From: Escherichia coli
Lineage (GTDB): Bacteria; Pseudomonadota; Gammaproteobacteria; Enterobacterales; Enterobacteriaceae
Assembly (NCBI RefSeq): GCF_002854065.1
Contig: NZ_CP024147.1
Direction: 5' to 3' (one strand)
DNA: 64,000 nucleotides
Part shown: piece by piece, positions 13,857-35,601 of the stretch
How positions within the stretch are numbered: position 1 is the first letter of the stretch
Layout: each line of letters starts with the position of its first letter
Translations under genes and position numbers: made by a program
Notes under the pieces: model-generated
The model's input: the letters and a program-made list of their open reading frames with translations, nothing else
The model's database searches: none
What the model was told of the DNA's origin: nothing

Positions 13857-14040
13857 GGCAAAGTTCTTTTTTTCGCGTTGTCGGGTTAGGGTATTATGTT
13901 GACCATTGTGCCACAGGGCTGCAACAAATAAGGTTTATTCCGAGTTTTTCTGCAAGCCAGGCTTGACGCTATCCGCTGCCGGGATTTATTCATATACTCC
14001 TGGCGACTTGTATTCAGCTAAGACACTGCACTGGATTAAG

Positions 14041-28920: not shown

Positions 28921-28935
28921 TTGCCTGCGCGCTTA

Positions 28936-28964
28936 AGCCAGCCTCGTATCAGGGGGCTGGTTTA
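28936..28964 (+). terminator. putative ybfA terminator
   Basis: ccagcc...ggctgg hairpin followed by TTT...TTTT. Confidence 0.4.
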
Positions 28965-28977
28965 TGTGTTTTACATC

Positions 28978-29011
28978 AACGTCTTCCATGATAATTAACA
29001 TGGAAGACGTT
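28978..29011. repeat. perfect 13-bp inverted repeat with 8-nt spacer, flanked by direct repeats TTACATC
   Basis: aacgtcttccatg-ataattaa-catggaagacgtt read directly; ttacatc on both sides. Confidence 0.6.
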
Positions 29012-29704
29012 TACATCGTGTTATTCATTTCATCACTGTTTTAGCATCAAGTTTCGATAGTATCCTTTTAAAGGGCGGCTCAGGATGCGGTCGCCTCCAT
29101 TGTTGCTCTAAGCAACTATGTCGTCAGAAATCTTCAGTTAGGTTGCATACTCCATTACACACTTTCCTGAAACCTCAGGGGAAGGTGAGAAAGCCCCTGT
29201 CACTTTTGCTCATTCCAGCATCTAAATAAATTCCGAATTTTGCTATTAACATCGCTACCGCAAGAAAAGCAGATAGTAAAGAGAGTAATATATACTTTAT
29301 TGATATATTAAGAATAATTAATTGTTAACATATCTAATGCAATAAGATGTGTTGTTGTTAATAAAAAGCTTATAGATTTATAGTTAATAATTAAAACGCA
29401 TCCGATATTTCAGCTTTTTCTATGCAAGATACAATTTTATAAGGTGTCCATTTTTATATGGAGGCGGTAGCGTGTCTGTTACTAGTGGTTTTATTTGCAT
29501 GGTGAATATATTGGGATTGTTAAATGCATAACGATGTATCCGTTCTGGTCGTTGTAAACATTGCTAATTGCTTAATATTATTAGTGATTATGGCTGGAAA
29601 GATAAAATGTGTGATAAACGGTGATGGATATCACCTTCATGACTAAAAAATAAATAAAAACCCATCAATAAATAATTCATTTATTAAAAAGGACTCATAC
29701 CAGT

Positions 29705-30157
29705 ATGACGGAGTATTATCTCAATGAAACTGTTGTAACTTTTCCCGGGAATATTATTCAGGACAGTACGATTAATATGCTGCGCCTCAGCGATCCCGAC
29801 GCTGCACTCATTATCAGTCGGGGCCAGATGCAGGAAGGAGACGAATTAGCCTCCCAGATTGAACAGCAAATGAAAAAACTGGAGAAACAGGTAAAGGATC
29901 TTCACTACACGCCAGTTCAGGTAACACGGGTAGGGATTAATGACGGTGAACAAGGGCTGGAAATACAGAGCCAGTTTCTCCGGGGTAACGAGCAGGTGTA
30001 CCAGTGTCAGGTGGCATTTGTATTGCCGGGTGAGCGGGTCATGATGGCCTTCACCTACGCCAGAACCACACCGCTGACCCCGGCAGATATGACGCGCTGG
30101 GCTGAAATTAAAAAGAATCTGCGCTTCAGGATGCGGCAGGAAGCCAGGACGAATTAA
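29705..30157 (+). CDS. Eag-family (DUF1795) chaperone for a prePAAR effector, EagR-like
   Basis: 150-aa ORF MTEYYLNETVVTFPGNIIQDSTINML... immediately upstream (18-bp gap) of an Rhs gene that carries a prePAAR motif and TM regions; size, position and N-terminal pattern fit Eag chaperones. Confidence 0.6.
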   Translation: MTEYYLNETVVTFPGNIIQDSTINMLRLSDPDAALIISRGQMQEGDELASQIEQQMKKLEKQVKDLHYTPVQVTRVGINDGEQGLEIQSQFLRGNEQVYQCQVAFVLPGERVMMAFTYARTTPLTPADMTRWAEIKKNLRFRMRQEARTN

Positions 30158-30175
30158 TCATACAGGGAACGGGAC

Positions 30176-33100
30176 ATGGAAGAGGCATTCTGGGCGGCAA
30201 GACAGGGTGATGCCCTGCTGCATACGTCGTTTATGGCAGATGTGCTGGGGGCGGTGCTGGAGGTGGCCGCAAATGTCGTTATTGATGCTCTCATTGTCGG
30301 CACAACCTCGTTACTGGCGGCGTCAGTGGGGTTCACGATGGGGTGCACGGCCGTCGTGCTGACCGGTTTTGTGGCGGGTGTGGCGATGGTGTACACCGGC
30401 GTGACAGAAAAGGTCAGCGAAGCCTGTTCAGCCCTCGCAGATATGCTTTTCCCGCCTCAGATTGAAGGTTACATCCTCACCGGCTCTGGTGACACATGGA
30501 TCAACAGCAAACCTGCCGCGCGGGCAGCGGCGACTGCGGCATCGCGGCAGGACATTGAGGCGCAGGAGGCGCAGTCGAAGGCGGAACAGGAAGAAGCGCA
30601 GCGTCAGGAGGATGCCAGAACGTTCCGGGATGTGGCCGGGGAATATCTGGAAATGGCGGGGGCCATAGCCCTGGCGGTTAACCCGGTGACAGGGCCTGTG
30701 CTGATGTCCCGGGCGCTGCACGACCAGCTCAGTACGGAAGAAGGGCGTTCTGAAATGGTGGATGGCGTGACACATTTTGTGTCGGAACTATGGCAGCCCA
30801 CTGTGGCCAGTGCGGCCCCGGGCTCCACCCCGACCCCTGACGATAAAATCGACTGCCATAAACATCCTTCCTCACTGACGCAGTTTCTCGCACAAAAAAA
30901 AGCTGCCTTTCTGGATGACCCCCTGGGAACGGCCCTTAACCTGCTGAGTCCGGACGGTATGCTGGAAACCGCCTTTCAGGGAGTGAATGCGGTTATTGGC
31001 AGCATCAGTAATCTGTTCAAAGGCGATGACGAGCCGCCCGCAGCGGAATATATCGCGGAAGGCGCGCGGGATGTGCGTATCAACAGCCAGCCGGCGGCAC
31101 GCAGCGGGGCACGCTGTACCTGCGAGGCCAGGGTGGTGAATGAGCCGGGGAACGGGGCGTTTGTGTCACCGGATGTGCGCATTGGCGGTCCGTTACTGGT
31201 GGTCAGGGATATCAGAAGCGGCAGGTCGCAGATAACCCTGGTGGCAACTGTGGCGCTGATGTTTCTTCGCCCGGGCAAAATGCTTTCTAAAATCGCCTGT
31301 TTTGCTGCCAGTGTCGGGATGAGCATGCTGGCGCAGAAGGCCACCAGAGCCCTTCCGCATCCGGTCAATGCCGCCACCGGGGCCAAATACCTTGCCGATG
31401 ACGATGACTTCGATTTCAGTCTGCCGGGCCACTTTCCGCTGGACTGGCAGCGCGTGTACAGCAGTCGTGACGAACGCACGGAAGGAATGTTTGGTCAGGG
31501 CTGGAGTGTGATGTATGAAGTCAGCCTGGTGCGCACACCGGGTAACGCGGACGAAAACTGCATGACCTTTGTGTCGGGCATGGGGCGACGCCTGGATATG
31601 GAAGCCGTGCTGCCGGGGAGCGGGTTTTACAGCCCCGGCGAAGGACTGGCAGTCCGGCGTGGTGAGCAGGGGCACTGGCTTATCAGCAGCGATGATGGAC
31701 AGTTTTTTCTGTTTGAAGCCGACCCGCACAACCCGCAGCGCCAGCGGCTGAAAATGCTGGGCGACCGTAACAGCAACTGTCTGAATCTGTACTACGACGA
31801 CCGGGGACGTATCACTGAAATCAGCGGCGAACAGCAGCGTCCGTGCATCCGTCTGTATTACGAACTGGCGGCGCATCCCCGGCGGATGACACAGATTTAT
31901 CAGCATTTCCCTGAGACTGCACCTTTACTGCTGCGTCGTTACAGCTATGACGAGGCCGGCCACCTGAACGGCGTGTACGACAGCACGGGGCACCTGCTGC
32001 GTGAGTTTGCTTACGACGAAAACCACTGCATGACGCTGCACCGCCAGCCGGGCGGCGAAGGGTATTATTACCAGTGGGGCTGGTATGACGGTCCGGATGA
32101 TGCGGCGTGGCGGGTAACGGGGCACCACACGGACAGCGGTGAACAGTACCGGCTGGCGTGGGACCTGGCGCAGCGCAGGCTGTGCGTGACGGACGGACTG
32201 GGGCGCACGCGTTATCACCAGTGGGATGCGCAGAATCAGGTGACGGCGTACCAGGACGAAGCCGGACAGGTGACGACATTCCGCTGGAGCGACGAAGAAC
32301 GACTGTTGCTGGGGATGACCGACCCTCAGGGCGGCAAATGGCGCTATGTGTATGACCGGCAGGGGCATATCACGGAGACGCACGACCCGCTGGGGCGGGT
32401 GGCGCAGGCGCAGTGGCACCCGGTGTGGCACCAGCCGGAAACGGAGGTGGACGCGGCGGGAAACAGCTGGCGCTGTGTGTACGATGAACGCGGCAACCTT
32501 CTTGCCGTGACCGACCCGCTGCAGCAGAACACCCGGTATCAGTATGACCACCACGGCCAGGTGGTGCAGATAACGGATGTCCGTGGGGGGAATAAATACC
32601 TTCAGTGGAACGAAGACGGGCAGCTCATGCGGCATACGGACTGTTCCGGCTCGCAGACGGCCTGGTTCTACGACGAACGCACGCGGCTGATACGGATGAC
32701 AGACGCGCAGAGCCACAGCACGCGCTACGGGTATGACGACAGCGGTCATCTGACGGAGGTGATACTGGCGGACGGCCGCACGGTGAATTACCAGTCAGAC
32801 GCGGCGGGCAGGCTGGTGAAGTACACCAGCCCGATGGGGAGGATAACGCGCTGGCAGCGGGACGGGCAGGGCCGGGTGCGCAGCCGGACGGACGCGATGG
32901 GGCGCAGGACGGCGTTCGGGTACGACGCTTACGGGCGTCTGGTCACGCTCACGAACGAGAACGGAGAACGCTACCGGTTCCGCCATGATGTGCTGGACCG
33001 TCTGGCGGAGCAGATAAACCCGGACGGCTGCCGCCAGTCGTACCGCTACAACGCGCTGAACGCGGTCACGGAAGTGGTGTTCACCGGGGACCGGGGCGGT

Positions 33101-34810
33101 GAAATCCGCCACCGGCTGGCGCGTGATGCGGCGGGCCGGCTCACGGCAAAGGAGACAGCCGATGGCCGTACGGAATACGTCCATGATGCGGCTGACCGGC
33201 TACTGGAAATCCGCCGCCGGCGGTCGGATGCCGGGGAAACGGACGCCCCGGAGATTATCCGCTTCAGCTACGACAGACTGGGGCGGATGCTGAGCGAGGA
33301 GACGGCGCAGGGCATCCTGACCCACCAGTACGATGAACTGGGCAACCGGACTGCCACCACCTTTCCGGACGGCAGAACGCAGCGCCATCTGTACTACGGC
33401 AGCGGCCATCTCCAGCAGATAAATCTGGACCGGGAAGTCATCAGCGAGTTCACGCGCGACCACCTGCACCGTGAAGTGCTCAGAAGCCAGGGGCGACTGA
33501 GCACGCGGCAGCTTTACGACCCCGGCGGGCGGCTGAAGCGCAGGGAGACATACAGCGGGATGCGCGGGGTGGTACCGGAGACGTTCACGGACCGGCAGTA
33601 CAGCTACAGTGGCGAGGATGAACTGCTGAAGACGCGGCACAGCCGGCGGGGGGAAACGGATTACTTCTACGACCCCACGGGGCGCATCACGGCGTGTCGT
33701 TCGGAGGATGAGGGGTATCTGGCGAGCTGGCAGTACGACGCGGCGGGAAACCTGCTGGGGAGGCGCGCGGGGGAAAGGGCCACGGCAGAAAACAGCGTGG
33801 TGCCGTTCAACCGGCTGATGTCTTACCGTGGTGTGCACTACCGTTATGACGAATTTGGCCGTGCGGTGGAAAAGGAGGGCCGGAGCGGAACGCAGAGTTA
33901 CCGTTATGATGCGGAACACCGGATGGTGGAAGTGACGACAGCGCGGGGGACATACCGGTATGTGTACGATGCGCTGGGGAGGCGGACGGAAAAACAGCAC
34001 ATCAGCCCTGACGGAAAACCGTACAACCGGACAAAATTTTTATGGGACGGGATGCGGCTGGCGCAGGAGAGCAGGCCGGAGGGGACAGGCAGCCTGTATA
34101 TCTACAGGGACCAGGGGAGTTATGAACCGCTGGCGCGGGTGGATAAGGCGGGGAAAGAGGGACCGAACCGGATACTGTATTTTCACACGGATGTGAACGG
34201 CGCGCCGGAAGAGATGACGGACAGTGACGGGAAAATCGTGTGGGAGACGGGGTATCAGGTCTGGGGTAACACGATACAGGAGAAGGACCACGGCAGGGTG
34301 GAGCAGAACCTGCGCTACCAGGGACAGTACCTCGACAGGGAAACGGGGCTGCACTACAATCTGCACAGGTACTATGATCCGGATGTCGGGCGGTTCATGG
34401 TAACGGATCCGATAGGGCTGCTTGGTGGATTAAACTTATACCAATATGCACCGAATCCGTTGGGGTGGATCGACCCGTTAGGTTTAAAGTGTGGGCAACC
34501 TGAATGGACAAATCATGGATACAAACATTTTCCTCCAAAAAACAAATCATGGAAGGATATAATTAAATCAACAAAATCAGGCCCGGCAAAATATTCTCCC
34601 GATATTGATATTAAAACGCTGGAATACGATGTTTTTAATACAGGCACACCTGTTACCAACGGTAAACCATGGAAAGTAAAAGATATGGGGAAAGTTATTG
34701 GGGCCAGTGAGGGTAAAGAATCTCAATGGGTTCGAGTTGAACTTAGCGGTGGGACAATACATGGACATCCCATATCACTTGATGAATTCCGAAGGCTAAC
34801 AACACCATGA
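30176..34810 (+). CDS. Rhs-family polymorphic toxin, class II prePAAR type VI secretion effector architecture
   Basis: 1544-aa ORF: prePAAR motif AARQGDALLH (aa 7-16), hydrophobic TM region 1 (aa ~20-76), split PAAR-like segments (INSKPAAR, INSQPAARSGARCTC), TM region 2 (aa ~349-390), long YD/RHS repeat core (YDxxGRL repeats), C-terminal PxxxxDPIGLxGGxNxYxYxxNPLGWIDPLGL boundary, then a short variable tip. Confidence 0.9.
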   Translation: MEEAFWAARQGDALLHTSFMADVLGAVLEVAANVVIDALIVGTTSLLAASVGFTMGCTAVVLTGFVAGVAMVYTGVTEKVSEACSALADMLFPPQIEGYILTGSGDTWINSKPAARAAATAASRQDIEAQEAQSKAEQEEAQRQEDARTFRDVAGEYLEMAGAIALAVNPVTGPVLMSRALHDQLSTEEGRSEMVDGVTHFVSELWQPTVASAAPGSTPTPDDKIDCHKHPSSLTQFLAQKKAAFLDDPLGTALNLLSPDGMLETAFQGVNAVIGSISNLFKGDDEPPAAEYIAEGARDVRINSQPAARSGARCTCEARVVNEPGNGAFVSPDVRIGGPLLVVRDIRSGRSQITLVATVALMFLRPGKMLSKIACFAASVGMSMLAQKATRALPHPVNAATGAKYLADDDDFDFSLPGHFPLDWQRVYSSRDERTEGMFGQGWSVMYEVSLVRTPGNADENCMTFVSGMGRRLDMEAVLPGSGFYSPGEGLAVRRGEQGHWLISSDDGQFFLFEADPHNPQRQRLKMLGDRNSNCLNLYYDDRGRITEISGEQQRPCIRLYYELAAHPRRMTQIYQHFPETAPLLLRRYSYDEAGHLNGVYDSTGHLLREFAYDENHCMTLHRQPGGEGYYYQWGWYDGPDDAAWRVTGHHTDSGEQYRLAWDLAQRRLCVTDGLGRTRYHQWDAQNQVTAYQDEAGQVTTFRWSDEERLLLGMTDPQGGKWRYVYDRQGHITETHDPLGRVAQAQWHPVWHQPETEVDAAGNSWRCVYDERGNLLAVTDPLQQNTRYQYDHHGQVVQITDVRGGNKYLQWNEDGQLMRHTDCSGSQTAWFYDERTRLIRMTDAQSHSTRYGYDDSGHLTEVILADGRTVNYQSDAAGRLVKYTSPMGRITRWQRDGQGRVRSRTDAMGRRTAFGYDAYGRLVTLTNENGERYRFRHDVLDRLAEQINPDGCRQSYRYNALNAVTEVVFTGDRGGEIRHRLARDAAGRLTAKETADGRTEYVHDAADRLLEIRRRRSDAGETDAPEIIRFSYDRLGRMLSEETAQGILTHQYDELGNRTATTFPDGRTQRHLYYGSGHLQQINLDREVISEFTRDHLHREVLRSQGRLSTRQLYDPGGRLKRRETYSGMRGVVPETFTDRQYSYSGEDELLKTRHSRRGETDYFYDPTGRITACRSEDEGYLASWQYDAAGNLLGRRAGERATAENSVVPFNRLMSYRGVHYRYDEFGRAVEKEGRSGTQSYRYDAEHRMVEVTTARGTYRYVYDALGRRTEKQHISPDGKPYNRTKFLWDGMRLAQESRPEGTGSLYIYRDQGSYEPLARVDKAGKEGPNRILYFHTDVNGAPEEMTDSDGKIVWETGYQVWGNTIQEKDHGRVEQNLRYQGQYLDRETGLHYNLHRYYDPDVGRFMVTDPIGLLGGLNLYQYAPNPLGWIDPLGLKCGQPEWTNHGYKHFPPKNKSWKDIIKSTKSGPAKYSPDIDIKTLEYDVFNTGTPVTNGKPWKVKDMGKVIGASEGKESQWVRVELSGGTIHGHPISLDEFRRLTTP
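30194..30223 (+). other. prePAAR motif (AARxxDxxxH)
   Basis: Codons 7-16 encode AARQGDALLH. Confidence 0.7.
34487..34810 (+). other. Rhs C-terminal polymorphic toxin domain (family not recognised)
   Basis: 107 codons after DPLGL: KCGQPEWTNHGYKHFPPKNKSWKDIIKSTKSGPAKYSPDIDIKTLEYDVFNTGTPVTNGKPWKVKDMGKVIGASEGKESQWVRVELSGGTIHGHPISLDEFRRLTTP; abrupt drop in GC relative to the Rhs core. Confidence 0.7.
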
Positions 34811-35100
34811 ACATTGATTTCTTAGGAAAAAAAGGGAATGTAATTTTTAATGACTTCTCCCTGAAACAAAGCATCCCTCTTAATGAACAGCGAGATGAAC
34901 TTAAGGAAGATATGCTCCAGGTTGAATATCCTGGTGGGTATCTTTTGGATGTTGGGTGGCGACCATCTTTTAATTTAAATGGGAATTTTTATATTTGTTT
35001 AATAAAGGATTTTGATTGGGATACTCCCATTTATAATGGTTCTGCGAAAGATATTGTCTCATTATTATTTGAAATTAACCAAGCTATAAATAAACTTTAA
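34807..35100 (+). CDS. putative cognate immunity protein of the Rhs toxin tip
   Basis: 97-aa AT-rich ORF whose ATG overlaps the rhs stop (ATGA); the usual toxin-immunity arrangement in Rhs loci; no family recognised. Confidence 0.65.
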   Translation: MNIDFLGKKGNVIFNDFSLKQSIPLNEQRDELKEDMLQVEYPGGYLLDVGWRPSFNLNGNFYICLIKDFDWDTPIYNGSAKDIVSLLFEINQAINKL

Positions 35101-35138
35101 AAAAGCCGGGAAGAAAATAACATCTTCCCGGCTTTTTT
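35099..35138. terminator. bidirectional intrinsic terminator shared by the immunity gene and the convergent SymE-like gene
   Basis: A6-gccgggaag-(loop)-cttcccggc-T6. Confidence 0.8.
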
Positions 35139-35143
35139 ATTAT

Positions 35144-35473
35144 TTAACTCTCGTCCAGCACACTAAACATCCCGTTCCGCATCCCCTTAACCACCTGTTT
35201 AACCTGATAAAGTTCCTCCCGCAGCTCCTGCACCTCGTCACTGTCAGCGATAATGGTCAGGCACCCCTCCGAAATCTTCACCGTGACACCCCGCCCGGTA
35301 TCAAATCCGGCCTCTTTCAGCCAGTCGCCCTTAAGGTTCAGGCAGGGGTGTCGTGAGTAGTACGTGGTCATGTAGGTTTTGCTGTTTATGTGGCGGGCTC
35401 TGACATAGCCGACTTTATAGCGGCGCTGTGTTTTGGAAATGGTGACTTCTGGCGTAATATCGTGTTCAGCCAT
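35144..35473 (-). CDS. SymE-like toxin (AbrB/SpoVT-fold, type I toxin-antitoxin family)
   Basis: 109-aa ORF; segment YYSRHPCLNLKGDWLKEAGFDTGRGVTVKISEGCLTI resembles the SymE signature as I recall it (xLKGxWLxxAGFxTG...EGC). Confidence 0.6.
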   Translation of the reverse strand: MAEHDITPEVTISKTQRRYKVGYVRARHINSKTYMTTYYSRHPCLNLKGDWLKEAGFDTGRGVTVKISEGCLTIIADSDEVQELREELYQVKQVVKGMRNGMFSVLDES

Positions 35474-35601
35474 GATTAACTACCTTGATGAGTTGCTTGC
35501 GGGGAGCGCGCTTTCGTAATCTTGCCCTGCTAGCGGATTAACTTCACAAAAATCATTTCCCAACGTCTACACTTACTCCTGTTAATATCTCAGGAGCAGT
35601 A

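What the first reader, a model, noticed from the sequence alone, without database searches (positions are those of the whole stretch)
30176..34810. Apparently orphan class II prePAAR Rhs effector: prePAAR motif, two TM regions and split PAAR, with no type VI secretion genes in the window
The 1544-aa Rhs protein starts with AARQGDALLH (the AARxxDxxxH prePAAR motif), followed by a long hydrophobic stretch, a PAAR-like segment (INSKPAAR), a second PAAR-like segment (INSQPAARSGARCTC), and a second hydrophobic stretch before the YD-repeat cage. That is the architecture of T6SS effectors that load onto VgrG through PAAR and need an Eag chaperone. The flanking 64 kb contains only housekeeping genes (kdp, phr, sdh/suc), so the secretion apparatus, if present, must be encoded elsewhere. 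K-12 RhsC at the equivalent site, as I recall it, lacks the TM/prePAAR N-terminus. Whether this strain has a T6SS at all determines whether the gene is functional or a relic.
Basis: partly seen in the sequence, partly recalled or inferred. Interest (0 to 1): 0.65.

Follow-up and report, generated by a model that had tools for sequence, protein, structure and literature searches.

The report
Disarmed T6SS Rhs toxin cartridge
This is an intact chaperone, Rhs toxin and antidote gene set for a bacterial contact-killing weapon, sitting in an E. coli strain whose weapon and spike genes have decayed; it is a known kind of system that probably can no longer be fired.

Summary
The label "class II" is wrong. 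This is a class I prePAAR Rhs effector with one true TM region (residues 17-78). Its PAAR cone is built from discontinuous segments with two helical insertions. The "second hydrophobic stretch" is the linker that every class I Rhs has; in P. protegens RhsA it is the seal and anchor helix. The toxin is about 89% identical to the predicted RNase of the S. bongori Rhs (PDB 8QJC). The module is a copy, lacking vgrG, of a vgrG-eag-rhs island normally found at ansP-pptA. It co-occurs strongly with a rare SPI-6-like T6SS at aspV (39 of 60 carriers against 117 of 5,426 genomes). The window is E. coli CUWW06. In that genome the aspV T6SS is cut to five genes, a T6SS-1-like cluster at pheV to four (two pseudogenes), and the cognate orphan vgrG is truncated. 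It is a new member of a known kind, of modest interest.

The parts
28925..29630 (.). AT-rich spacer that forms the left end of the island. The left junction with K-12-like DNA is at 28924/28925, just after ybfA.
   Evidence: Homology to K-12 stops at window 28924. Homology to the vgrG-linked M18 island starts at 29631. There is no ORF of 50 aa or more. Among carriers the spacer falls into ~100%, ~92% and ~88% identity classes.
29631..29654 (+). Relic of the 3' end of vgrG (last codons plus stop, ...ATCACCTTCATGACTAAAAAATAA).
   Evidence: The M18 island aligns from L007 13929, inside vgrG (which ends at 13954), to window 29631 onward at 97.75% identity. The sequence was read directly.
29705..30157 (+). 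eag: Eag-family (DcrB/DUF1795) chaperone gene, 150 aa.
   Evidence: Pfam DcrB E 3.9e-19. Best PDB hits are SciW (E 7e-4) and EagT6 (E 0.28). 147/150 identical to the vgrG-linked Eag of M18. Annotated 'DcrB-related protein' in RefSeq.
30176..34810 (+). rhs: class I prePAAR Rhs effector, 1544 aa.
   Evidence: ORF. YD repeats and the Rhs-associated core domain. 7Q97 RhsA matches at E=0 over residues 287-1440.
30194..30223 (+). prePAAR motif AARQGDALLH (residues 7-16). H16 is the likely fourth zinc ligand.
   Evidence: Regex match. Invariant or nearly invariant. Role of the motif taken from PMC7773334.
30224..30409 (+). The single TM region (residues 17-78). The model predicts helices at 19-50, 57-74 and 76-91.
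   Evidence: KD19 up to 2.21. Helices in the AF2 model.
30458..30529 (+). PAAR segment 1 (residues 95-118, ...INSKPAARAA).
   Evidence: Pfam weak hit to model positions 8-29. I100, G103, S104, N110 and A114-A117 are invariant. pLDDT is 93-97.
30530..30787 (+). Insertion 1 in the PAAR domain (about residues 119-204), predicted as four helices.
   Evidence: Length between A117 and C227 is 109 aa here, against a median of 61 and a range of 6-124 in 48 relatives. Helices at 124-147, 150-168, 173-185 and 188-206.
30788..30871 (+). PAAR segment 2 (residues 205-232, WQPTVAS...DCHKHP) with C227 and H230.
   Evidence: C227 is invariant and H230 nearly invariant. pLDDT is 91-94.
30872..31036 (+). Insertion 2 in the PAAR domain (about residues 233-287), predicted as three helices. 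Specific to this lineage.
   Evidence: Length between H230 and G296 is 65 aa here, against 8-12 aa in almost all relatives. It is 59-65 aa only in the E. coli/Salmonella-type sequences. Helices at 234-282 with pLDDT 77-91.
31037..31210 (+). PAAR segment 3 (residues 288-345, ...INSQPAARSGARCTC...VRIGG) with C316.
31211..31357 (+). Post-PAAR linker (residues 346-394).
   Evidence: Aligns to 7Q97. Function in RhsA from PMC8765631. Linker length is conserved, median 63 aa. Hydropathy control.
31358..31363 (+). Predicted N-terminal autoproteolysis site, H395|P396 (LPHPVNAATGAK). An acidic DDDD run follows at residues 408-411.
   Evidence: Aligns to THPVHAATGAK of RhsA, which is cleaved at P305. P396 and V397 are nearly invariant. 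Cleavage itself was not tested.
31361..34486 (+). Plug domain (DUF6531) and YD-repeat cage, ending in the Rhs-associated core with DPIGL (1411) and DPLGL (1433) motifs, the C-terminal aspartyl autoprotease.
   Evidence: Pfam DUF6531 at 395-473. TIGR03696 at 1360-1437 and YD repeats. Motif positions.
34487..34807 (+). C-terminal toxin (residues 1438-1544), a predicted RNase.
   Evidence: 8QJC (S. bongori Rhs toxin) matches at E 2e-62, with 93 of 104 positions identical. The fold was predicted as RNase and CdiA-CT-like in bioRxiv 10.1101/2024.02.26.582050. The proposed catalytic residues are conserved here as H1451, K1472, H1529 and H1531. No Pfam hit.
34807..35100 (+). Immunity gene (97 aa), overlapping the rhs stop codon by 4 nt.
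   Evidence: ORF. It begins MNIDF... and ends ...AINKL, like the S. bongori antitoxin A464_2173 judged from that paper's primers. No Pfam, NCBIfam or PADLOC hit. The toxin-immunity DNA occurs in 15 genomes.
35098..35139 (.). Bidirectional intrinsic terminator between the immunity gene and symE.
   Evidence: 17-bp stem followed by T runs, on both strands.
35144..35473 (-). SymE-family type I toxin gene (109 aa).
   Evidence: NCBIfam SymE E 1.4e-13, below the curated cutoff. RefSeq annotation.
35274..35402 (+). isrA-family sRNA, antisense to the SymE-like gene.
   Evidence: Rfam RF01385, 112.9 bits against a gathering score of 51, E 2.5e-25, full-length model match.

Best explanation
Window 28925-35495 is a 6.6-kb auxiliary T6SS effector island sitting in the ybfA-ybgA slot, where K-12 has the unrelated rhsC element. 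It encodes four things: an Eag-family chaperone, a class I prePAAR Rhs effector, the cognate immunity protein, and a SymE-like/IsrA type I toxin-antitoxin pair. Inferred mechanism, by homology with P. protegens RhsA-EagR1-VgrG1 and S. Typhimurium Rhs1-SciW: Eag shields the N-terminal TM helices in the cytoplasm. The prePAAR motif and three PAAR segments fold into one zinc-binding cone that caps a VgrG spike. The cage encloses the autocleaved C-terminal toxin. T6SS firing delivers the complex, and the TM helices help the roughly 12-kDa predicted RNase cross the target's inner membrane. The immunity protein protects kin. The module is a derived copy, lacking vgrG, of a vgrG-eag-rhs island that normally sits between ansP and pptA. 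It keeps nearly the same Eag and loading region but carries a different toxin. It is therefore a second cartridge for that island's orphan VgrG, which is a paralogue of the spike of a rare SPI-6-like T6SS at aspV. In strain CUWW06 every partner is broken. The aspV cluster is reduced to tssA, tssG, tssF, tssE and a tagJ pseudogene beside an IS3. The orphan vgrG has lost its C-terminal 182 residues. A second, T6SS-1-like cluster at pheV is reduced to tssB (pseudogene), tssC, tssK and tssL (pseudogene). The effector is therefore intact but most likely cannot be delivered. It is a recently disarmed cartridge, and only its immunity gene has an obvious remaining use.
Against: About 4.4 Mb of CUWW06 was examined only with DNA probes (tssC of four types, tssM of two types, one vgrG). 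hcp, clpV and tssJ were not probed genome-wide, so a very divergent or scattered T6SS is not strictly excluded. No expression data exist, and promoter-like matches are at chance level. The pairing with the orphan VgrG and the SPI-6-like T6SS is inferred from homology and co-occurrence, not shown. The co-occurrence P value ignores phylogenetic relatedness. Twenty-one of the 60 carriers lack the aspV-type tssC. At least 72 genomes have the vgrG-linked island but not that tssC (189 against 117). So either disarmament is common or another T6SS can fire this spike. RNase activity is predicted, not demonstrated, even for the S. bongori homologue.
Confidence: 0.78

Rival explanations
1. One reading: a class II prePAAR effector with two TM regions flanking the PAAR domain, fused to an Rhs cage. 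That would be an exceptional hybrid architecture.
For: There is a moderately hydrophobic stretch after the PAAR domain at 352-387. Ahmad et al. say that large effectors 'almost exclusively' have one TMD region, which leaves room for exceptions.
Against: The stretch peaks at KD 1.35 and contains three basic residues. It aligns with the linker of the class I archetype RhsA, where it forms the seal peptide and an amphipathic anchor helix inside the cocoon. The linker has a conserved length in 48 relatives. It is more hydrophobic in the ordinary SciW-type class I Rhs, at 1.71. The class II motif GxxxxGxxLxGxxxD is absent. Only one eag gene is adjacent.
Confidence: 0.03
2. The effector is still delivered in CUWW06, either by a T6SS my probes missed or by a chimeric machine assembled from the surviving genes of the two remnants.
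For: eag, rhs and the immunity gene are all intact. Most of the genome was checked only with DNA probes. Six core genes survive intact across the two remnants: tssA, tssE, tssF, tssG, tssC and tssK.
Against: No intact tssB, tssL or vgrG was seen, and no tssM, tssJ, tssH or hcp was found at either locus. Probes for tssC of all E. coli types and for tssM of two types found nothing else. The surviving genes come from systems only 24-43% identical at the protein level, so cross-complementation is implausible. The cognate VgrG lacks the tip that PAAR binds.
Confidence: 0.07
3. The module is kept in disarmed strains for a T6SS-independent reason. The immunity gene may protect against still-armed relatives, or the toxin/immunity and SymE/IsrA pairs may act as addiction modules that stabilise the island.
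For: Within the near-identical clade, one member (PapRG-06-5) still has the T6SS and the same toxin-immunity DNA at 100% identity, so kin fire is a realistic selective pressure. A type I TA pair sits beside every rhs module seen. K-12 has kept intact rhs genes without any T6SS.
Against: This would explain retention of the immunity gene but not of a 4.6-kb intact rhs. A relative, XJ34, has already lost most of eag-rhs while keeping the toxin end and the immunity gene: only about 0.9 kb lies between the spacer and the CT. That pattern looks like ongoing decay, not maintenance. There is no direct test.
Confidence: 0.15

Closest known systems
P. protegens RhsA with EagR1 and VgrG1 (PDB 7Q97; Ahmad 2020, Gunther 2022), the class I prePAAR archetype
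   Same: Same order of parts: prePAAR, one TM region, PAAR, hydrophobic linker, H|P cleavage site followed by an acidic run, plug, YD cage, DPxGL autoprotease, small toxin. Best PDB match: E=0 over residues 287-1440, and the N-terminal pieces also align. An Eag gene lies directly upstream.
   Different: The PAAR domain here has larger loop-outs: insertion 1 is 109 aa, and insertion 2 is 65 aa where relatives have about 10. The toxin is different. No vgrG is adjacent. The host strain lacks a working T6SS.
S. Typhimurium SPI-6 Rhs1 with SciW, and its E. coli orthologue in the aspV cluster of PapRG-06-5
   Same: A class I prePAAR Rhs with a DUF1795 chaperone. It probably uses the same T6SS, since the orphan VgrG is 73% identical to the in-cluster VgrG.
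   Different: A separate lineage. The two Eags show no BLASTP similarity and the Rhs proteins are 33% identical. The window Eag matches SciW only at E 7e-4, and Pfam prePAAR_I only at E 0.9. The in-cluster PAAR has no insertions.
S. bongori N268-08 PAAR-Rhs A464_2174 with antitoxin A464_2173 (PDB 8QJB, 8QJC, 8QJD; Kielkopf et al.)
   Same: The toxin domain is 93/104 identical. All four proposed RNase residues are conserved. The immunity protein has matching termini.
   Different: The cage is only distantly similar (E 6.6e-130, over residues 840-1543 only). This is a case of toxin-immunity cassette sharing between different Rhs backbones.
E. coli K-12 RhsC
   Same: Exactly the same chromosomal slot between ybfA and ybgA. 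It is also an intact Rhs in a genome with no working T6SS.
   Different: RhsC has a short N-terminal PAAR-like start (MSGKPAARQGD...), with no prePAAR, no TM region and no eag. It is about 28% identical. NCBIfam RHS_core scores 324 bits here against a cutoff of 2000.
Class II prePAAR effectors (P. aeruginosa Tse6 with EagT6)
   Same: A prePAAR motif, a first TM region, a PAAR domain, and dependence on an Eag chaperone.
   Different: Class II effectors are about 450 aa, have no Rhs cage, have a true second TM region, and carry the GxxxxGxxLxGxxxD motif. None of these applies here.

Membership tests
Class I prePAAR Rhs effector (Ahmad et al. 2020) | N-terminal AARxxDxxxH motif | tested here: met
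   AARQGDALLH at residues 7-16. Invariant or nearly invariant in relatives.
Class I prePAAR Rhs effector (Ahmad et al. 2020) | A single TM region, located N-terminal to the PAAR domain | tested here: met
   Only residues 17-78 exceed KD 1.6 in the whole protein. No dedicated TM predictor (TMHMM or DeepTMHMM) was available.
Class I prePAAR Rhs effector (Ahmad et al. 2020) | A PAAR domain completed by prePAAR | tested here: met
Class I prePAAR Rhs effector (Ahmad et al. 2020) | A YD-repeat Rhs cage of more than 1000 aa with a C-terminal toxin | tested here: met
   Eleven YD-repeat stretches, the Rhs-associated core, and DPxGL motifs. 7Q97 matches at E=0.
Class I prePAAR Rhs effector (Ahmad et al. 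2020) | A cognate Eag (DUF1795) chaperone that binds the TM region | tested here: inconclusive
   The gene is present directly upstream and belongs to the right family. Binding cannot be tested with these tools.
Class I prePAAR Rhs effector (Ahmad et al. 2020) | T6SS- and VgrG-dependent export | not testable with these tools
   Inferred from the vgrG-linked sister island. In CUWW06 the required partners are broken.
Class II prePAAR effector | Two TM regions flanking the PAAR domain | tested here: not met
   The second stretch peaks at KD 1.35 and is homologous to the class I linker.
Class II prePAAR effector | About 450 aa, no Rhs cage, and a GxxxxGxxLxGxxxD motif | tested here: not met
   1544 aa with an Rhs cage. 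The motif is absent.
Complete T6SS in the host genome (13 core genes tssA-M) | Intact sheath (tssB and tssC), membrane complex (tssJ, tssL, tssM), hcp, vgrG and clpV together in one system | tested here: not met
   aspV has tssA, tssE, tssF and tssG only. pheV has tssC and tssK plus tssB and tssL pseudogenes. vgrG is truncated. Whole-genome probe counts leave nothing else. Caveat: DNA probes only, and hcp, clpV and tssJ were not probed genome-wide.
S. bongori-type Rhs RNase toxin with its immunity protein | Sequence identity to the 8QJC toxin, with the proposed catalytic residues conserved | tested here: met
   E 2e-62 with 93/104 identical. H1451, K1472, H1529 and H1531 correspond to H1437, K1458, H1515 and H1517. 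The RNase activity itself is only predicted in the source paper.
SPI-6-type T6SS (for the aspV cluster this module associates with) | aspV insertion, tae4-tai4 between tssC and hcp, and a SciW-type Eag with an in-cluster Rhs | tested here: met
   Gene order in PapRG-06-5. Eag matches SciW at E 3e-69, and Tae4 matches S. Typhimurium Tae4 at E 5e-94. That SPI-6 sits at aspV in Salmonella is from my own knowledge.

The most novel reading that the evidence does not exclude
The two helical insertions (about 85-100 aa and 55 aa) loop out of the PAAR cone and are modelled with fair confidence as helical bundles. They may form an undescribed accessory module of class I prePAAR effectors. Possible roles are extra shielding or binding surfaces for the TM helices, Eag or VgrG, or an enlarged membrane-translocation device. 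Insertion 2 is confined to an Escherichia/Salmonella lineage.
Probability: 0.25. Interest if true: 0.5.

Novelty: new member of a known kind. Interest (0 to 1): 0.3.

Why it matters
The strain carries an intact effector, chaperone and immunity set, but its delivery machine, its spike and a second T6SS have all decayed. This is a clean snapshot of how T6SS arsenals are dismantled piece by piece, with the cartridge outlasting the gun. It also documents three wider points. A SPI-6-like T6SS exists in about 2% of complete E. coli genomes. A spare effector module lacking vgrG tracks with that system from a locus about 490 kb away, and depends on an orphan VgrG about 740 kb away. And PAAR domains of class I effectors tolerate large helical insertions. 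None of this changes current understanding of Rhs effectors.

Full report
OBSERVATION. The window is 100% identical to the chromosome of E. coli CUWW06 (NZ_CP182139.1, wastewater, Thailand). Window position plus 1,543,339 gives the record position.

- AARQGDALLH at residues 7-16.
- A strongly hydrophobic stretch at 17-78, with Kyte-Doolittle 19-aa windows up to 2.21. It is the only part of the protein above the 1.6 threshold.
- INSKPAAR near residue 110 and INSQPAARSGARCTC near residue 305. Pfam PAAR_motif matches 291-321 (model positions 39-69, E 2e-5) and weakly matches 97-118 (model positions 8-29, E 1.8).
- A YD-repeat cage with the Rhs-associated core.

- A 150-aa DcrB/DUF1795 gene 19 bp upstream, at 29705..30157 (Pfam E 3.9e-19). 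Its best PDB hits are the Eag chaperones SciW and EagT6.
- A 97-aa ORF overlapping the rhs stop codon, at 34807..35100.
- A convergent SymE-family gene at 35144..35473.

CLASS. Ahmad et al. 2020 define two classes. Class I prePAAR effectors are Rhs proteins with one TM region before the PAAR domain. Class II effectors are about 450 aa, have no Rhs cage, have TM regions on both sides of the PAAR domain, and carry a GxxxxGxxLxGxxxD motif. 'Class II Rhs' is therefore a contradiction unless the second TM region is real. It is not, for these reasons:
- Residues 352-387 peak at KD 1.35 and contain R365, K368 and K372.
- The best solved relative is the class I archetype, P. protegens RhsA (7Q97). It aligns across this stretch and on into the cage.
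- In RhsA this segment is the seal peptide plus an amphipathic anchor helix that sits inside the cocoon, just before the autocleavage site at P305.
- The motif here, LPH|PVNAATGAK followed by DDDD, matches RhsA's TH|PVHAATGAK followed by DDD.
- In a 48-sequence alignment the linker has a conserved length: median 63 aa, 57 aa here.
- It is at least as hydrophobic in ordinary class I proteins. It reaches 1.71 in the SciW-type in-cluster Rhs, the median of 45 relatives is 1.40, and 11 of them exceed 1.6.
- The class II motif is absent.

THE 'SPLIT' PAAR. The two PAAR-like segments belong to a single PAAR domain, interrupted twice. Alignments show three conserved segments: about 95-118, about 205-232 (with C227 invariant and H230 nearly so), and about 288-345 (with C316).
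- Insertion 1 lies at a generally variable site, 6-124 aa long with a median of 61. It is 109 aa here.
- Insertion 2 is 8-12 aa in almost all relatives, but 59-65 aa in the E. coli/Salmonella-type sequences only.

WHERE THE MODULE COMES FROM. K-12 shares the flanks exactly. Homology runs up to window 28924, just after ybfA, and resumes at 35496, just before ybgA. In between, K-12 holds rhsC. RhsC is 28% identical and has no prePAAR, no TM region and no eag.

The eag-rhs lineage occurs in 234 genomes. In M18 a copy sits between ansP and pptA in the order vgrG-eag-rhs-immunity-symE. That copy is 97.75% identical to window 29631-34435. The homology begins inside the last 25 bp of vgrG and ends where the toxin begins. 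A 24-bp vgrG relic is readable at 29631-29654. Eag is 147/150 identical and the first 400 Rhs residues are 391/400 identical, but the toxins differ. In 189 of 215 genomes this eag is joined to the vgrG 3' end. A relative at 54% identity from a metagenome has the same vgrG-eag-rhs order. The ybfA copy is therefore a derived second cartridge, lacking vgrG, for the same spike. dN/dS between the two copies is 0.16 (0.12 in the cage), so the lineage is under purifying selection.

WHICH T6SS. The orphan VgrG is a bona fide TssI. It is 73% identical to the in-cluster VgrG of a T6SS inserted at aspV, against 24-29% to T6SS-1 and T6SS-3 VgrGs.

In the close relative PapRG-06-5 the aspV cluster is intact. 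It runs tssA-G-F-E, tagJ, tagK, tssH, tssB, tssC, tae4-tai4, hcp, tssJ-K-L-M, tagF, vgrG, eag, rhs, immunity, and then orphan rhs ends with symE. Its Eag is about 80% identical to SciW, and its Tae4 matches S. Typhimurium Tae4 at E 5e-94. It is therefore a SPI-6-type system. Its own Eag-Rhs pair is a different lineage from the window's: the Eags show no BLASTP hit and the Rhs proteins are 33% identical.

This T6SS is rare. Its tssC is in 117 of 5,426 genomes. Of the 60 genomes that best match the ybfA-side spacer, 39 carry that tssC, where 1.3 would be expected (hypergeometric P 5e-53, not corrected for relatedness). In the main carrier group the figure is 37 of 39.

DOES CUWW06 HAVE A T6SS? 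No complete one was found.
1. At aspV only tssA, tssG, tssF, tssE and a tagJ pseudogene remain. An IS3, an rhs fragment and a symE follow. This exact arrangement is unique to CUWW06.
2. At ansP-pptA the orphan vgrG is 99.4% identical to M18's for residues 1-483. It then runs out of frame into a 153-bp rhs fragment and a partial symE. The C-terminal 182 residues, which include the tip that PAAR caps, are lost.
3. To search the rest of the genome I used chimeric queries. A strain-specific marker pinned CUWW06 to the top of the ranking, and short T6SS probes followed it. With tssC of three types, tssM and vgrG, CUWW06 gave 3 places. The marker alone gave 1. With the vgrG probe replaced by a second tssM probe it gave 2.
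4. The unexplained hit turned out to be a T6SS-1-like tssC at pheV. That locus is also a remnant: tssB is frameshifted, tssC and tssK are intact, tssL is truncated, and a JetD fragment and fimbrial/IS1 DNA flank it.
5. CUWW06 has a single tssC1-like place and no aspV-type tssC.
6. tblastn with 40 T6SS proteins finds nothing in the window and only these remnants in the CUWW06 DNA I hold.

In CUWW06's own clade (spacer identity at least 99.9%, 7 genomes) only PapRG-06-5 still has the sheath gene. XJ34 has lost most of eag-rhs as well. The system is being dismantled in this clade.

CAVEATS. Most of the genome was screened with DNA probes only, and hcp, clpV and tssJ were not probed genome-wide. 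There is no expression evidence; promoter-like sites are at chance level. The VgrG and T6SS pairing is an inference. At least 72 genomes have the vgrG-linked island without the SPI-6-type tssC. So either disarmament is common or another T6SS can use this spike.

VERDICT. This is a class I prePAAR Rhs effector with its Eag chaperone and immunity gene. It is a spare cartridge, lacking vgrG, for an orphan VgrG of a SPI-6-like T6SS, and it is stranded in a strain that has lost the machine. It is a known kind of system. The large helical PAAR insertions are the only feature I could not find described.

Noticed in passing
window 35274-35402 (+), antisense to 35144-35473 (-): There is a strong Rfam isrA sRNA match (112.9 bits against a gathering score of 51, E 2.5e-25), fully antisense to the SymE-like gene. 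Together they look like a type I toxin-antitoxin pair. A SymE-like gene follows every rhs module I saw: CUWW06 aspV (L002 40327-40560), CUWW06 ansP-pptA (L009 20826-21035), M18 (L007 19545-19787) and PapRG-06-5 (L004 14622-14777). It may act as the downstream homology anchor for swapping toxin-immunity cassettes.
   Followed up: partly
window 28925-29630: This 700-bp AT-rich spacer between ybfA and the vgrG relic has no ORF of 50 aa or more. Among carriers it falls into three identity classes (~100%, ~92%, ~88%). That is more diverged than the flanking housekeeping genes, which are 96-97% identical to K-12. Its origin and function are unknown; it may hold the module's promoter.
   Followed up: partly
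L003/L004 (PapRG-06-5 aspV island); CUWW06 L002 32261-41444: A SPI-6-type T6SS (tae4-tai4, a SciW-type Eag, aspV insertion) exists in E. coli, but only in 117 of 5,426 complete genomes. Its tssC shows no blastn similarity to the commoner E. coli T6SS types. A literature search for Tae4 with aspV in E. coli returned nothing.
   Followed up: partly
L009 18122-19005 (CUWW06) and L007 10846-11735 (M18), upstream of the orphan vgrG: Two small conserved ORFs (176 and 118 aa) precede the orphan vgrG. The second weakly matches the NCBIfam family 'putative T6SS immunity periplasmic lipoprotein' (E 2.8e-7, below cutoff). They may be another effector-immunity pair riding on the same VgrG island.
   Followed up: partly
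L010 29142-33548 (CUWW06 pheV island): The T6SS-1-like remnant abuts a fragment of a Wadjet JetD gene and an IS1-disrupted fimbrial operon. The pheV island is a patchwork of broken defence, secretion and adhesion genes.
   Followed up: no
L008 38329-50000 (CUWW06 record 2,378,329-2,390,000): There appear to be tandem copies of an inovirus-like prophage. The gene set of GspD-like secretin, Zot-family protein, DUF2523 and a replication protein recurs.
   Followed up: no
XJ34 and XJ6-3 (NZ_CP098231.1, NZ_CP098227.1): These close relatives of CUWW06 keep the ybfA spacer and the same toxin-immunity DNA, but only about 0.9 kb lies between them. Most of eag-rhs has been deleted while the toxin end and the immunity gene survive, which is a further stage of decay.
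   Followed up: no
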